Part shown: positions 1-5,733 of the stretch, piece by piece
How positions within the stretch are numbered: position 1 is the stretch's first letter
How the letters are laid out: each line of letters starts with the position of its first letter
DNA from: a virus
Taxonomy: Duplodnaviria; Caudoviricetes
DNA length: 64,000 bases
Virus record (IMG/VR): IMGVR_UViG_3300017700_000931
Location: 64,001-128,000 of that record
Reading direction: 5' to 3' (one strand)
Translations under genes and position numbers: made by a program
Notes under the pieces: model-generated
What the model was told of the DNA's origin: nothing
Database searches by the model: none
The model's input: only the letters and a program-made list of their open reading frames with translations

Positions 1-220
1 CTTCATGGGCACCTTTTCCCCATTTATACCATCCAAAAATGTTTGCAATGAAGAAAATTATCTGCAAAATTGCTTGTAAATAAATTTTTTCATTAAAATA
101 AATGACGAAAAAGAGAATTATTGCAACAATTCCGAAAAACCAACACCAAATATTTTGTTTTGCTGTCAAATAAACACAAATCAATGTGAAAATCATTGCA
201 GATATCTCCAAAAATTTCAT
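1..220 (-). CDS. pnuC: PnuC-family vitamin (nicotinamide riboside/thiamine) transporter, 5' part; runs off the window start
   Basis: Not in ORF track. ATG at 220 overlaps the TonB receptor stop. Translation MKFLEISAMIFTLICVYLTAKQNIWCWFFGIVAIILFFVIYFNEKIYLQAILQIIFFIANIFGWYKWG has the PnuC pattern (xNIWxW..G, Q...GWYxW). Confidence 0.85.
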   Translation of the reverse strand, partial: MKFLEISAMIFTLICVYLTAKQNIWCWFFGIVAIILFFVIYFNEKIYLQAILQIIFFIANIFGWYKWGKGAHE

Positions 221-2193
221 TATAAAGACATTTTGATTGTGATATAACCACTTAATGGTGCATTTACATAGAAATACCTAAGATTATCTACAACATACCC
301 ATTAGTATAGTACCGTACACTGGTAATATTGTTAACCCTACCACTAATAGTATAGTCTTTATAGGTATACCCTATACTACCCCCATATATGATAAAAGAG
401 GGGGTGGTGTAATTATTACTAAAATCTAAATACGAACTACTATGGTATTTGGCTGTAAAGGCTAAATTAAATGGTCCATACTTATAATTCAATTCAGCAT
501 TGCTAACTACCGGAGGTGTATACAATGGTTGGAATTTCATTCCATTATCGTTTATTCGATTATAAGATAGGTTCGTATTATTATTCAGGGTCAATCTACC
601 ATTTTCATTATCCAATAAAATAATTGATGTCTCGATTTCAATTCCACTTCTAAATGATTTATCAACATTCATCATTAATGGTAAACCGTTAGAGCCTAAA
701 GCACCTATCAGGGTTATTTCATTTTTGAAATCCATGAAGTATAGATTACTTTTAAATTTGAATCTTTCACTCAAATAACTAAAACCAACCTCATAATCCG
801 TAACCATTTCTGGATTTACTGCTGAATATGAAATTAGATTATCTTCGCCCATGAACATATCATTACGAGTAGGTTCTCGGTGAGATACTCCAACTGAAGC
901 ATATGCTCTAAAATGTCTACAATAATTAAATACTACACCAGCTTTAGGATTAAAGAATAACCAATTTAAGTCCGGCATGACTACATCACCATTATATTCA
1001 AATGTAACATATCTTAATTGGGCATCCCCGAACAATGTGTACTTTCCGATGTCATAACCACCTTTCATGAATCCACTCAATTCATTCTTAAAACCTTTAT
1101 TAGTGTATAACCTATTTTCAACGTGAGGTAAAAGAGCCATACCATGTTCTCTATTGTACATATTACCATGGATTCCAATATTAGCATTTAATTTATCACC
1201 AGAATATTTGTAGTTGGACATCAGGCCATAAAAATTAGAGGCTAATTGGTAATTCAAAACATCGGTACCAGCACCTAATGGATTTAAATCCAAATCCCAC
1301 TCACCATCAAGACGATTATAATAAATTGTTGTATTAATTAATGATTTATTACCCAATCTTTGAGTATGTTGTACTTGAATAAAATTTTGAATGAAATTAT
1401 CATCCTCAACTGGTGTGTTATAATTAGTTCTTGGGTCTGCATTAATATCCAATTCGGAAACTGCATTCCAAGACATTTGATTTAATGACCGACCAGTGAA
1501 TCCTGAAAATTTGATTACACTATTTTTTAAATGGTAACCACCGCTCATGAAGAACGAATAACCCTTACTTCCAGAATTATATTTGTAACCATCAGTATCA
1601 AATGTAGAAAAATTAGTATAGATTGCTAACCCTTTATCATTAATCCCAGTGCTGTGCGAAACATTAAATCGTTTTGTATTAAAAGAGCCATAACCTAATT
1701 CTACTTCGGTGAATTCTTTCACACCACTTGGACTCTCAAAATTGATTGAACCAGCATAAGAGGAAACACCATTCGTAGATGTTCCAACACCACGTTGAAT
1801 TTGCATTGATTGAATATTATTTGAAAATCCGGGGTAGTTAGAGAAATAAACACCTTGGTCTTCTGGTTCATTAAGGGGAACACCATTAAGTGTCATATTA
1901 ATTCTAGTTTGGTCAATCCCTCTAATTCTAAAATAAGTATAACCTTGTGGATGACCACCATCCGTTGATGATGTGATTGAAGGGGTTTTATCCAAAACTT
2001 GTGAAACTTCTTCACCTTGATATCCGGTTTTAATATCATCTCGACCAAGTGTTGTTTCAGTGACTGGAGTTTTGTTATCAGCTCTAACGCCAGTAACACT
2101 TACACCCTCAAGTGTAATCATCTTAGTTGTATCTTCCTGAGCATGAACAAAAACAAGACTCAACAGAGTAATACAAAATAATAATTGTTTCAT
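220..2193 (-). CDS. TonB-dependent outer-membrane receptor (thiamine/vitamin type)
   Basis: Signal peptide, plug motifs (IRGIDQTRINMTLNGVPLN, IQIQRG..S..G...AGSIN), beta-barrel pattern, C-terminal NNIT..RYY..GY; directly upstream of pnuC. Confidence 0.9.
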   Translation of the reverse strand: MKQLLFCITLLSLVFVHAQEDTTKMITLEGVSVTGVRADNKTPVTETTLGRDDIKTGYQGEEVSQVLDKTPSITSSTDGGHPQGYTYFRIRGIDQTRINMTLNGVPLNEPEDQGVYFSNYPGFSNNIQSMQIQRGVGTSTNGVSSYAGSINFESPSGVKEFTEVELGYGSFNTKRFNVSHSTGINDKGLAIYTNFSTFDTDGYKYNSGSKGYSFFMSGGYHLKNSVIKFSGFTGRSLNQMSWNAVSELDINADPRTNYNTPVEDDNFIQNFIQVQHTQRLGNKSLINTTIYYNRLDGEWDLDLNPLGAGTDVLNYQLASNFYGLMSNYKYSGDKLNANIGIHGNMYNREHGMALLPHVENRLYTNKGFKNELSGFMKGGYDIGKYTLFGDAQLRYVTFEYNGDVVMPDLNWLFFNPKAGVVFNYCRHFRAYASVGVSHREPTRNDMFMGEDNLISYSAVNPEMVTDYEVGFSYLSERFKFKSNLYFMDFKNEITLIGALGSNGLPLMMNVDKSFRSGIEIETSIILLDNENGRLTLNNNTNLSYNRINDNGMKFQPLYTPPVVSNAELNYKYGPFNLAFTAKYHSSSYLDFSNNYTTPSFIIYGGSIGYTYKDYTISGRVNNITSVRYYTNGYVVDNLRYFYVNAPLSGYITIKMSL

Positions 2194-2893: not shown

Positions 2894-3154
2894 TTACCAA
2901 ATATTGGCTATAATTTCAGTATTTATTATTTCAATTTTTAATTTGGCTCTAAATTTAATACTACCCTTGGTGTGTGGATTTTCTGGTGTTTCTTTAGTAG
3001 AGAATCCAACTCCGGGAGACACATCAATATGATTAACATAATGCGTCAGACCCATATGTTTAATCACCCACATTGGTATCGTATTATCTTCGAGATTTTT
3101 CTTATTAAAGTGAAAAATTATTTCTCGTCTTTTTGTGTCATCAATGATTAACAT
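2894..3154 (-). CDS. Hypothetical protein
   Basis: 86-aa ORF whose start overlaps the Pth2-like stop (coupled). Confidence 0.7.
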   Translation of the reverse strand: MLIIDDTKRREIIFHFNKKNLEDNTIPMWVIKHMGLTHYVNHIDVSPGVGFSTKETPENPHTKGSIKFRAKLKIEIINTEIIANIW

Positions 3155-3501
3155 GATAATACCCCTTTCCCCATTAATGGTAATGAACTAGTTAATTTAC
3201 GACTAGCCTCAGATGGGGCCAATGCAATTGCTGTTAATTCATTATTGATATCCGGTTCCCTAAATGGTGTTATCTTAATATAACGTTCAGCTGCTTTTAG
3301 AATGAATTGTTTTAACTCATCTTCATTAGCTACGGTTAGGAAAATTAAATAATTGGAATTTGTGTGCCAGTCTTTGGCCTCCGTTGGATGTCCATGTTGG
3401 AAATCGATTGCAGCATGAGCTGCTTGTACTGCTTGATAAGCAAGTGGTAAATCACGTCTAGTGATGACAATTAATTTGTTATTTTCAATCTAATTTTTCA
3501 T
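3148..3501 (-). CDS. Peptidyl-tRNA hydrolase PTH2-family protein with an in-frame TAG at codon 4
   Basis: Not in ORF track. MKN*IENNKLIVITRRDLPLAYQAVQAAHAAIDF...WHTNSNYLIFLTVANEDEL...FREPDINNELTAIALAP fits the PTH2 pattern (K.V.V.R.DL, Q.AHA, V..E.EL, T.LA..P). TAG at 3490-3492. Confidence 0.82.
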
Positions 3502-3522
3502 ACTTCTACTTTTTATTTTTAG

Positions 3523-3588
3523 TGCTCTTGGAGAGAATCGAACTCTCTGACACGGGTTTTAGAGGCCACCGTCACATCCTACAAGAAC
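3523..3588 (-). tRNA. Non-canonical 66-nt tRNA-like RNA with a putative CUA (amber) anticodon
   Basis: Acceptor GTTCTTG/CAAGAGC, perfect T arm GAGAG-TTCGATT-CTCTC, loop CTCTAAA; D arm reduced or absent and anticodon stem bulged. Confidence 0.65.
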
Positions 3589-3597
3589 AAATATGTT

Positions 3598-3720
3598 AGA
3601 CCTCTCACAATCCTTTACTCTTGGGTCTCAGGTCTTGCGGACCTGTGAGTTTATTTCTTTCGAAACAAAACGGCTACTGGGACAGGAATTTGGCATCACA
3701 GTAACTTGTACCTCTCTCAA
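3598..3720 (-). ncRNA. Structured leader RNA of the tRNA(CUA)-pth2 operon
   Basis: Follows promoter at 3729. Stems GTTACTG/CAGTAGC, a GAAA-tetraloop hairpin (3649-3671), CAGGTC-CGCAA-GACCTG, and CTCACA/TGTGAG crossing AGACC/GGTCT. Confidence 0.45.
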
Positions 3721-3776
3721 ACACATTACAAAGATAAGAACTTTATTTGAATTGTCCAAACATTTTTGCAATTATT

Positions 3777-5054: not shown

Positions 5055-5733
5055 TTATTTTAAAAGCTGAATTTTTCCTCTTAGGATATCTTTCAATTTG
5101 GCAGTTTTATTAGTAATATGGTCAACTACGATATCATCCTTTACACGATATGTTCTACGTTTATCACCACGATTACCAACCCCAATCTGATTTCTACGTT
5201 CTTTAACCTCTTCTTGGTCATGTCCGGTTTTATAAAACGTATTAACACGTAGTGTTATTTCCTTAAAGGCTGCTTCTTTATTTTTATGTTGGTCTCGGCC
5301 ATCACGAACCACTCTGATACCTGTTGCATTATGTGTCATGATAACACACGAATCAGTAGTATTTTTATGTTGACCGCCACTTCCAGTTCCTCTAGTAAAT
5401 TCAATACGGACTTCATCGTGTCTGATTTCGACATCCTTATATTGTGGTTTATCTAAAATTGCTACTGTGATTGATGAAGTTTGAATACGACCCTTCTTTT
5501 CTGTTGGAGGGATACGTTGCCACCTATGGTTGCCTACTTCATTGTTAAATATTTTTTTTACACCAGACCCGCTAAAGGCATAGACAGACAAATCCTTCTC
5601 TGTCTTCAACTAACATTCAGTTAATGTTGTTAATCTTCGCTGTTTTGATGTAGATATCTCTCATATCTCCCACCAATAACTTAGCATCTTTGCCACCTTC
5701 GGCATCTCTGATTTCTAAATAAATCGTTTCCAT
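5055..5733 (-). CDS. prfA-like: RF1-like class I peptide release factor lacking domain 1; needs TGA readthrough (5617-5619) and a +1 frameshift at CTT TAG C (5577-5571); about 225 aa
   Basis: Frame 1 gives LEIRDAEGGKDAKLLVGDMRDIY (cf. RF1 LEVRAGTGGDEAALFAGDL). The +1 frame gives SGSGV...EVGNHRWQRIPPTEKKGRIQTSSITVA (PxT motif) and TGSGGQHKN (GGQ). Confidence 0.88.

What the first reader, a model, noticed from the sequence alone, without database searches (positions are those of the whole stretch)
3523..3588. Shrunken tRNA-like gene with a CUCUAAA amber anticodon loop
Seen: 66 nt with a 7-bp acceptor, a perfect T arm and discriminator A, but only 34 nt between acceptor and T arm (about 41 in standard tRNAs), so the D arm is essentially missing. 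The only U33-compatible loop is CTCTAAA (anticodon CUA), on a bulged stem (ACGG/CCGT plus G-C and a C-A closing mismatch). Known: tRNA-Pyl has the same loop and a small body but uses G73, and no pyl genes are in the window. Inference: an amber suppressor or amber-decoding mimic in a genome that otherwise uses TAG as stop, positioned to control specific TAG-containing genes.
Basis: partly seen in the sequence, partly recalled or inferred. Interest (0 to 1): 0.82.

Follow-up and report, generated by a model that had tools for sequence, protein, structure and literature searches.

The report
D-arm-less amber suppressor tRNA, phage
A giant phage of Bacteroidota carries a conserved 66-base tRNA that has lost its D arm but keeps a UAG-reading anticodon, and it sits directly in front of a peptidyl-tRNA-hydrolase-like gene whose fourth codon is UAG, so it most likely reads that stop codon and switches the gene on.

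Summary
Window 3523-3588 (minus strand) has a 7-bp acceptor stem, a perfect T arm, discriminator A and a CUCUAAA loop. Only 34 nt lie between the acceptor stem and the T arm, and the 3' half of the D arm is absent.

It is not a decaying pseudogene. Five other phage contigs carry the same 66-nt form. Between them the acceptor and T stems change by compensatory substitutions. The 34-nt core is 31-34/34 identical, while third codon positions of the adjacent gene are only 49-72% identical.

It occupies the position held by ordinary 72-76-nt tRNA(CUA) genes in more than 100 related phage loci, directly upstream of a PTH2-like gene. That gene starts ATG, then 1-9 codons, then an in-frame TAG. In three distant relatives a TAG lies inside the domain.

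The 362-kb phage uses the standard code and has no other CUA tRNA. It encodes its own GlnRS.

Best reading: a working, structurally reduced amber suppressor that gates pth2. Nothing here is experimental.

This scan has already reported the tRNA(CUA) plus TAG-gated PTH2 cassette on other DNA, in at least 29 genomes. New here is the conserved form that lacks a D arm; I found such tRNAs described only for mitochondria.

The parts
3523..3588 (-). 66-nt tRNA(CUA)-like gene without a D arm: acceptor stem 1-7/59-65, core 8-41 holding the CUCUAAA loop at 25-31, T arm 42-58, discriminator A66. No CCA is encoded.
   Evidence: Conserved in L148, L157, L158, L159 and L160 with compensatory changes.
3502..3522 (-). 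[quoted passage not shown]
   Evidence: The spacer differs in length and sequence among relatives while the tRNA-like core does not.
3490..3501 (-). pth2 leader ATG AAA AAT TAG. The in-frame amber codon is at 3490-3492 and is followed by ATT.
   Evidence: 102 of 106 distinct homologous contexts have ATG, 1-9 codons, then TAG, all in frame. The base after TAG is A in 85, G in 16, C in 1 and T in 0.
3148..3489 (-). Body of the PTH2-like gene: 113 codons plus the stop codon. There is no canonical start codon before the conserved domain.
   Evidence: Pfam PF01981, 29.9 bits against a cut-off of 23. A profile of the family matches solved archaeal Pth2 structures (1rzw, 2zv3) at E 5e-9.
3731..3760 (-). 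Promoter-like site (TTTG, about 20 nt, TAtcTTTG) that would drive one transcript carrying the tRNA-like gene and pth2.
   Evidence: TGGACA-16-TATCTT. The same motif is kept in L148, L157, L158 and L159 just upstream of the element. Reading it as a Bacteroidota -33/-7 promoter rests on my own knowledge.
3589..3725 (-). Transcribed leader between the promoter and the tRNA-like gene. It holds a conserved hairpin, CAGGUCCGCAAGACCUG. Its function is unknown, and it is absent from L148, L158 and L159.
2894..3154 (-). 86-aa ORF whose ATG overlaps the pth2 stop codon (ATGTTAA). It is present after pth2 in every close relative. No family match.
5055..5733 (-). RF1-like release-factor gene of the same module. 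It has PPT and GGQ motifs, an in-frame TGA, and a CTT TAG C site that needs a +1 shift.
   Evidence: The gene is syntenic upstream of the CUA tRNA in 19 related loci. The CTT TAG C site is also present in L004 and L025.

Best explanation
The element is the local form of the amber-suppressor tRNA(CUA) that many large phages keep next to a PTH2-like gene. In this clade it has been remodelled into a 66-nt tRNA without a D arm and is held in that form by selection.

Likely mechanism:
1. It is transcribed with pth2 from one promoter.
2. RNase P and a 3' processing enzyme cut it out, using its intact acceptor/T-arm half.
3. It receives CCA and is aminoacylated. The amino acid may be glutamine, loaded by the phage's own GlnRS or by the host's.
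4. It reads the UAG at codon 4 of pth2 in competition with RF1.
5. The hydrolase-like protein is therefore made only while this tRNA is active.

Shown:
- homology to the family and shared gene order;
- conservation with compensatory changes;
- that this is the only CUA element in the genome;
- that TAG in pth2 must be read through across the family.

Inferred:
- processing, charging and the identity of the amino acid;
- decoding by a tRNA that lacks a D arm;
- the purpose of the gate.
For: 1. Six distinct 66-nt sequences come from different metagenomes (window, L148, L157, L158, L159, L160).
- Four of 7 acceptor pairs and 1 of 5 T-stem pairs change on both sides.
- All 114 pair cells form standard pairs; 0 of 500 shuffles reach the observed covariation score.

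2. The core (positions 8-41) is 31-34/34 identical in every pairwise comparison. Third codon positions of the adjacent pth2 are 49-72% identical. The binomial P for each pair is 2e-4 to 8e-10.

3. CUA is invariant in 76 aligned family members, and in the reduced clade as well.

4. Position: the element lies upstream of pth2 and downstream of the RF1-like gene, where relatives have full-length tRNA(CUA) genes.

5. Read-through is required.
- In 104 of the 106 contexts the nearest ATG upstream of that stop codon is in frame; the other two have no ATG within 30 nt. One third in frame would be expected by chance.
- 98 of 102 TAG contexts have no canonical start codon after the TAG.
- The codon after TAG is often GTA, GTT, AAT or GGC, which cannot initiate.
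- L052, L057 and L058 carry a TAG inside the conserved domain.

6. No other CUA tRNA was found in the complete 362-kb genome, by ARAGORN, Rfam, the family model or a regular-expression scan.

7. Relatives that lack the upstream element carry a canonical CUA tRNA elsewhere in the locus (L161, L162).

8. The D region has been altered independently in other CUA elements linked to pth2: L122, L036/L147, L051 and L028.

9. The phage encodes GlnRS (TIGR00440, 637 bits).
Against: - There is no expression, processing, charging or suppression data.
- I found tRNAs without a D arm described only for mitochondria, which have adapted translation factors (PMC7609411). Whether bacterial EF-Tu, ribosomes and a synthetase accept this one is unknown.
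- The central stem is irregular: a C.A (or A.A) closing mismatch, and either a 2-nt bulge or a 2x2 internal loop. It shows no covariation, only one G-C to G.U change.
- The fold energy of the whole molecule is unremarkable, z = -1.0.
- Conservation shows that the RNA has a function, not that the function is decoding.
- The only case where stop codon and anticodon change together (TAA with UUA, L059) sits beside a frameshifted pth2.
- The genome holds many other odd tRNA-like elements.
Confidence: 0.62

Rival explanations
1. It is a conserved tRNA-like handle rather than a decoder. The acceptor/T-arm half serves only as an RNase P / RNase Z cutting or stabilising signal at the 5' end of the pth2 mRNA, like t-elements or tRNA punctuation. 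In this clade Pth2 would then be made by leaky termination at UAG-A or by some other route.
For: - The element lies 21 nt before the ATG, on the same transcript.
- Covariation supports only the acceptor and T helices.
- The genome has other tRNA-like pieces that lack an anticodon arm.
- This scan has read tRNA look-alikes in front of phage genes as cutting handles before (e1-3752156; not checked here).
Against: - The 34-nt core, including YUCUAAAA, is the most conserved part: 31-34/34 identical. A cutting handle does not need it.
- The anticodon loop equals the consensus of the decoding family.
- pth2 keeps its TAG and an intact ORF in all six phages, although the one complete genome has no other CUA tRNA.
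Confidence: 0.22
2. It is a tRNA mimic with a role other than decoding that still depends on the CUA loop. Examples would be a substrate or regulator of the PTH2-like hydrolase, a decoy for a host anticodon nuclease, or an uncharged A-site competitor of RF1.
For: - tRNA(CUA) and PTH2-like genes stay linked even where pth2 has a normal ATG start (L057, L058, Myrna).
- The phage PTH2-like family replaces the lysine of the archaeal GK motif, so its substrate may differ.
- The core sequence is invariant, as expected for a protein-binding site.
Against: - There is no direct evidence for any of these roles.
- A TAG inside the domain in L052, L057 and L058 needs a real decoder.
- Canonical members of the family look like ordinary elongator tRNAs.
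Confidence: 0.1
3. It is a recently broken suppressor tRNA pseudogene: a 6-nt deletion that is decaying together with a dead pth2.
For: - ARAGORN misses it and it scores below the Rfam threshold.
- The D arm is incomplete and two anticodon-stem pairs are lost in the ancestral register.
- The genome contains other degenerate tRNA-like sequences.
Against: - The same deleted form is kept in six lineages that differ at 28-51% of pth2 third codon positions, with compensatory stem changes and no lesion in the loop, T arm or acceptor stem.
- pth2 is intact in all of them.
Confidence: 0.03
4. It is a tRNA-Pyl-like molecule that inserts pyrrolysine at UAG.
For: It has a CUCUAAA loop and a compact body.
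Against: - The discriminator is A73, not G73.
- The genome has no PylS.
- A D arm is absent rather than small.
- It descends from ordinary class-I CUA tRNAs.
Confidence: 0.01

Closest known systems
Phage-encoded suppressor tRNAs of stop-codon-recoded phages (TAG read as Gln, 'code 15': crAss-like, Lak and others; bioRxiv 10.1101/2021.08.26.457843, PMC9523058)
   Same: A phage-borne tRNA with anticodon CUA, in a low-GC phage of Bacteroidota, that overrides UAG during infection. It travels with release-factor and GlnRS genes.
   Different: - This genome is not recoded. TAG ends about 10% of long ORFs, and only one gene carries an in-frame TAG.
- The tRNA lacks a D arm.
- The one target is conserved and lies next to the tRNA.
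Suppressor tRNA(CUA) plus TAG-gated PTH2 cassette, as already reported by this scan in other genomes (e1-3634854, e1-3288186, e1-933198 and others)
   Same: The same cassette: a tRNA(CUA) on the same strand as a PTH2-like gene with an early in-frame TAG. I re-derived it independently here on 106 distinct contexts.
   Different: In those reports the tRNA is a normal cloverleaf. Here the partner is a conserved 66-nt form without a D arm, and it is the only CUA element in a complete genome. I found no published description of the cassette itself.
Mitochondrial tRNAs without a D arm (mammalian tRNA-Ser(AGY), nematode tRNA-Ser; review PMC7609411)
   Same: The D arm is replaced by a short connector, while the acceptor stem, the T arm and an anticodon arm are kept. 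The segment from the anticodon to the T arm keeps its canonical length (12 nt).
   Different: Those tRNAs work with co-evolved mitochondrial EF-Tu, ribosomes and synthetases. This one would have to work on a bacterial ribosome. It is unrelated by descent, and its T loop is fully canonical.
tRNA-Pyl
   Same: CUA anticodon, a CUCUAAA-type loop and a compacted core.
   Different: tRNA-Pyl has a D arm (a small one), G73 and a dedicated PylRS. None of these is present here.
prfB (RF2) autoregulation through an in-frame UGA
   Same: Synthesis of a translation factor is made to depend on how efficiently one stop codon near the start of its own gene is read.
   Different: prfB uses a +1 frameshift sensed by RF2, with no dedicated tRNA. 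Here a tRNA reads through the stop codon. A prfB-like CTT TAG C site does occur in the neighbouring RF1-like gene.

Membership tests
Canonical elongator tRNA (Rfam RF00005) | 7-bp acceptor stem with a discriminator base | tested here: met
   GUUCUUG/CAAGAGC followed by A. Four of the 7 pairs covary among six sequences.
Canonical elongator tRNA (Rfam RF00005) | 5-bp T stem with a 7-nt UUCRAUU loop | tested here: met
   GAGAG-UUCGAUU-CUCUC. Pair 45-55 switches between A-U and G-C.
Canonical elongator tRNA (Rfam RF00005) | D arm: a 3-4 bp stem closing a loop that holds G18 G19 | tested here: not met
   Only a 5' remnant (UAGGAUGUGACGG) is left. The 3' strand, position 26 and position 27 are absent compared with L019 and L097.
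Canonical elongator tRNA (Rfam RF00005) | 5-bp anticodon stem closing a 7-nt loop with U33 | tested here: inconclusive
   The loop CUCUAAA with U33 is present. In the ancestral register the stem keeps only 2 Watson-Crick pairs. Two alternative pairings exist, neither supported by covariation.
Canonical elongator tRNA (Rfam RF00005) | Score at or above the family's gathering threshold, and a call by a tRNA finder | tested here: not met
   23.7 bits against 29. ARAGORN makes no call.
Phage amber-suppressor tRNA of the pth2 cassette | CUA anticodon in a YU-CUA-AA loop | tested here: met
   The CUCUAAA loop equals the family consensus. CTA is invariant in 76 aligned members and in all six reduced forms.
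Phage amber-suppressor tRNA of the pth2 cassette | Same strand as, and close to, a PTH2-like gene with an in-frame TAG | tested here: met
   The element ends 21 nt before the ATG of pth2, which has TAG at codon 4. The gene order RF1-like gene, then tRNA, then pth2 is shared with the relatives that carry the RF1-like gene, such as L002, L004 and L019.
Phage amber-suppressor tRNA of the pth2 cassette | Aminoacylation and decoding of UAG | not testable with these tools
   No expression or biochemical data could be reached.
tRNA-Pyl | G73, a small but present D arm, and a PylRS partner | tested here: not met
   The discriminator is A73 and there is no D stem. No PylS match in the 362-kb genome.
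tRNAs without a D arm (mitochondrial type) | The D arm replaced by a connector loop, with the acceptor stem, anticodon arm and T arm kept | tested here: met
   A 7-9-nt connector follows position 7. The segment from the anticodon to the T arm keeps its canonical length. This is a likeness of architecture only: the element is unrelated by descent and non-organellar.
tRNA-like processing handles (t-elements) | An acceptor/T-arm mimic placed at a gene boundary, with no conserved anticodon function | tested here: inconclusive
   The position fits (21 nt before the ATG). The anticodon region, however, is the most conserved part of the element, which argues against a bare handle.

The most novel reading that the evidence does not exclude
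A tRNA that lacks a D arm is charged and decodes UAG on an ordinary bacterial ribosome. It forms a self-contained loop with the PTH2-like hydrolase it gates: the enzyme is made only when suppression is active, and it in turn acts on the suppressor's acylated or peptidyl form, setting the level of amber read-through during infection.
Probability: 0.2. Interest if true: 0.92.

Novelty: new variant of a known kind. Interest (0 to 1): 0.8.

Why it matters
If this RNA decodes, it would be the first natural tRNA without a D arm, outside the mitochondria where I found them described, to work with bacterial EF-Tu, ribosomes and a synthetase. That bears on how much of the tRNA body translation really needs. 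It would also offer a compact, possibly orthogonal, amber suppressor.

It shows as well that standard tRNA finders miss real phage suppressor tRNAs. The authors of the stop-codon recoding survey suspected this when they found suppressors in only 35-40% of recoded phages (10.1101/2021.08.26.457843).

Together with the cassette, it gives a concrete target for the suppressor tRNAs of standard-code jumbo phages. The XacN1 study could not find one (PMC5852040).

Tried and rejected
- **Exact-pattern scans for the reduced form.** IMG/VR and GTDB genomes gave nothing. The five relatives came only through protein look-ups of neighbouring genes.
- **Scan for the leader ATGAAAAATTAGATTGAA.** It gave four chance matches with no pth2.
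- **The genome search 'relatives'.** It is not available for a virus record.
- **Other TAG-interrupted genes in the genome.** All candidates turned out to be adjacent genes or non-coding upstream frames: L168, L169 and window 7362.
- **Paralogue of origin.** No phage tRNA is clearly the source. The anticodon arm of tRNA-Trp(CCA) differs by one base, and tRNA-Lys(CUU) is closest for L019. The amino acid therefore stays unknown.
- **Choosing between the two central-stem models.** There is no covariation to decide.
- **phmmer of Pth2 against PDB.** It found nothing; only a profile did.
- **Last contig look-up (P0017).** The gene sits at the end of its contig, so there is no upstream sequence.
- **TAA/UUA covariation in L059.** I do not count it as strong evidence, because that pth2 is frameshifted.

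Full report
**Setting.** The window is bases 64001-128000 of a single 362,532-bp virus record with direct terminal repeats and 32.7% G+C.
- ARAGORN finds 57 tRNA genes, and there is also a tmRNA gene. Rfam finds 69 tRNA-like matches, several of them odd or truncated.
- The genome uses the standard code. ORFs of at least 100 aa under table 11 cover 82% of it, and TAG ends 43 of 439 such ORFs.
- TAG is not over-represented between two long open frames, compared with TAA and TGA.

**The observation.**
- a 7-bp acceptor stem, with one U.G pair;
- a perfect T arm;
- discriminator A;
- 34 nt in place of about 41 between the acceptor stem and the T arm;
- a CUCUAAA loop.

ARAGORN misses it. Rfam tRNA aligns it end to end at 23.7 bits, below the threshold of 29. 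The fold energy is unremarkable, z = -1.0.

**What lies next to it.** Twenty-one bases downstream starts ATG AAA AAT TAG ATT..., followed by 113 open codons. These match Pfam PTH2 above its threshold. As a family profile they match solved archaeal Pth2 structures at E 5e-9. No canonical start codon follows the TAG before the conserved domain.

**The family context.** Searching viral and metagenome contigs with this protein gave 139 loci.
- Among 106 distinct sequence contexts, 102 have an in-frame TAG preceded by an in-frame ATG 1-9 codons upstream. Of these, 98 have no canonical start codon after the TAG.
- In 104 of the 106 contexts the nearest upstream ATG is in frame with that stop codon; the other two have no ATG within 30 nt.
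- The base after TAG is A in 85, G in 16, C in 1 and T in 0. Genuine TAG stops in this genome are followed by T 14 times, A 13, G 5 and C 1.
- The codon after TAG is usually ATT. It is also GTA, GTT, AAT, AAC, CTT, GGC or GGT, which cannot initiate.
- L052, L057 and L058 carry a TAG inside the conserved domain, and the frame continues into FREPDINN.

So the TAG is read through rather than bypassed by re-initiation. The flanks of these loci use the standard code.

tRNA(CUA) is the commonest tRNA in these loci, with 83 distinct sequences. It is present in 38 of 41 loci of at least 6 kb. The three exceptions are:
- L150, a near-identical copy of this window;
- L028, which has a non-canonical CUA element that only the covariance model finds;
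- L059, which has a TAA leader and a tRNA(UUA). Its pth2 is frameshifted, so I give it little weight.

CTA is invariant across 76 aligned members. In 19 related loci an RF1-like gene lies upstream of the CUA tRNA, as it does in the window.

**Is the window's element a wreck or a working variant?**
- Against its nearest full-length relatives (L019, L097) it lacks six bases: the 3' D-stem strand, position 26 and position 27. In the ancestral register it has also lost two anticodon-stem pairs.
- The family model scores it 48.2 bits, at the bottom of the family range of 57-87. Other D-region variants score alike: L036/L147 at 49.8, L051 at 50.0 and L122 at 47.2.
- Protein look-ups of the neighbouring 213-aa gene, and of Pth2 itself, then recovered closer relatives. 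L148, L157, L158, L159 and L160, from different samples, carry the same 66-nt architecture.
- On the six-sequence alignment, 4 of 7 acceptor pairs and 1 of 5 T-stem pairs change on both sides, and every cell forms a standard pair.
- The 34-nt core differs at only four positions: 13, 24, 25 and 40. It is 31-34/34 identical in every pair, although third codon positions of the adjoining pth2 are 49-72% identical and the spacers have diverged by insertions and deletions.

That pattern is purifying selection on the reduced form. The leader TAG is kept while its neighbouring codons vary (MKN*, MNN*, MKNM*).

The complete genome has no other CUA tRNA by ARAGORN, Rfam, the family model or a regular-expression scan. 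Clade members without the upstream element (L161, L162) have a canonical CUA tRNA after tRNA-Cys. Sister phages L151-L156 carry yet another unusual CUA element: 80-81 nt, with an 8-bp acceptor stem, a 4-bp T stem and a 6-bp D stem, itself supported by compensatory changes. The D region of this suppressor is therefore evolutionarily plastic, while its acceptor stem, T arm and anticodon loop are not.

**Mechanism.** A promoter-like TTTG-N20-TAtcTTTG motif upstream is kept in the relatives. The RNA and pth2 are therefore probably one transcript, from which the RNA is cut. I infer the following steps; none is shown:
- CCA addition;
- charging, with glutamine as the first guess, because the phage encodes a bona fide GlnRS and TAG-to-Gln is the known phage reassignment;
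- decoding of UAG at codon 4.

The core fold is unresolved. The minimum-free-energy helix is 15-19/37-41 plus 22-23/33-34, which would give about ten stacked layers, the length of a normal anticodon-plus-D stack. Both pair in 100% of cells and neither shows covariation, apart from one G-C to G.U change at 16-40 that fits the second. Why the hydrolase is gated is also unknown. It may be scaling of rescue capacity to the level of read-through, or feedback on the suppressor itself.

**What is known.**
- Phage suppressor tRNAs and stop-codon recoding are established (10.1101/2021.08.26.457843, PMC9523058).
- PTH2 has been noted in jumbo phages, without mention of the amber gate (PMC7824862).
- The XacN1 study could find no target for that phage's CUA tRNAs (PMC5852040).
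- A 2020 review of non-canonical tRNAs describes loss of the D arm only in mitochondria and does not mention phages (PMC7609411).
- I found no paper that describes the cassette.
- This scan has already reported the cassette in at least 29 other genomes. A word search found no note of a form without a D arm.

**Verdict.** The cassette is a repeat finding for this scan. The conserved tRNA(CUA) without a D arm is the new element.

Noticed in passing
window 5055-5733 (-): RF1-like release-factor gene with PPT and GGQ motifs; its best NCBIfam match is prfA. The reading frame needs a +1 shift at CTT TAG C and also passes an in-frame TGA. The CTT TAG C site recurs in L004 and L025. Other relatives show an in-frame TGA at the matching place.
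   Followed up: partly
L151:3317-3397, L152:3202-3282, L155:3305-3385 (also L153, L154, L156): Sister phages replace the 66-nt element with an 80-81-nt CUA tRNA-like gene that ARAGORN also misses. It has an 8-bp acceptor stem, a 6-nt connector, a 6-bp D stem, a 9-nt anticodon loop and a 4-bp T stem (an 8/4 layout), with compensatory changes among the three types.
   Followed up: partly
L122:1205-1270; L036:4109-4177 (= L129, L147); L051:5554-5623; L028:2532-2603: Other CUA elements linked to pth2 have independently altered D regions. L122 is 66 nt, has lost the 5' D-stem strand and has a CUCGAUU T loop. L036 and L051 (69-70 nt) have no 8-9 linker and only a tiny D arm. In L028 (72 nt) the D stem is unpaired.
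   Followed up: partly
window 3589-3725 (-): A leader of about 107-137 nt lies between the promoter and the tRNA-like gene, with a conserved hairpin CAGGUCCGCAAGACCUG and the motif AGAGUAAAGGAUUGUGA. It is shared with L157, L151 and L155, and absent from L148, L158 and L159. No Rfam match at E<=10.
   Followed up: partly
G000:C1:10843-12459 (-), outside the window: The phage encodes a glutamine-tRNA ligase of 538 aa (TIGR00440, 637 bits), a candidate enzyme for charging the CUA RNA.
   Followed up: partly
G000:C1 311813-311870 (+), 15044-15110 (-), 13142-13198 (-), 25354-25409 (-), 56622-56789 (-): Many other non-canonical tRNA-like elements occur in the same genome. Examples are a 58-nt one without an anticodon arm and a 67-nt one with a GUA loop and a reduced D region.
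   Followed up: no
LC168164.1 (Tenacibaculum phage pT24) 194083-195036 and 191520-191594: A cultured phage has the canonical cassette. Its pth2 starts ATG AAA TAG ATA, but CDS BPT24_235 is annotated from a later start and named hypothetical protein. A normal tRNA(CUA) lies 2.6 kb upstream.
   Followed up: partly
window 2894-3154 (-): An 86-aa ORF whose start overlaps the pth2 stop codon (ATGTTAA). It follows pth2 in every close relative and is itself followed by tRNA-Cys(GCA). No Pfam or PHROG match.
   Followed up: no
window 220-2193 (-) and L150:5951-6394: The phage genome carries a TonB-dependent receptor gene (Plug plus beta-barrel, 657 aa), followed by an NMN-transporter-like gene. This is unusual cargo for a virus.
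   Followed up: no
L160:546-752: In one relative a structured insert of about 190 nt, with a T-arm-like CUGGGUUUGACUCCCAG, separates the 66-nt element from pth2. In L154 a GIY-YIG endonuclease gene lies upstream of the CUA tRNA-like gene.
   Followed up: no
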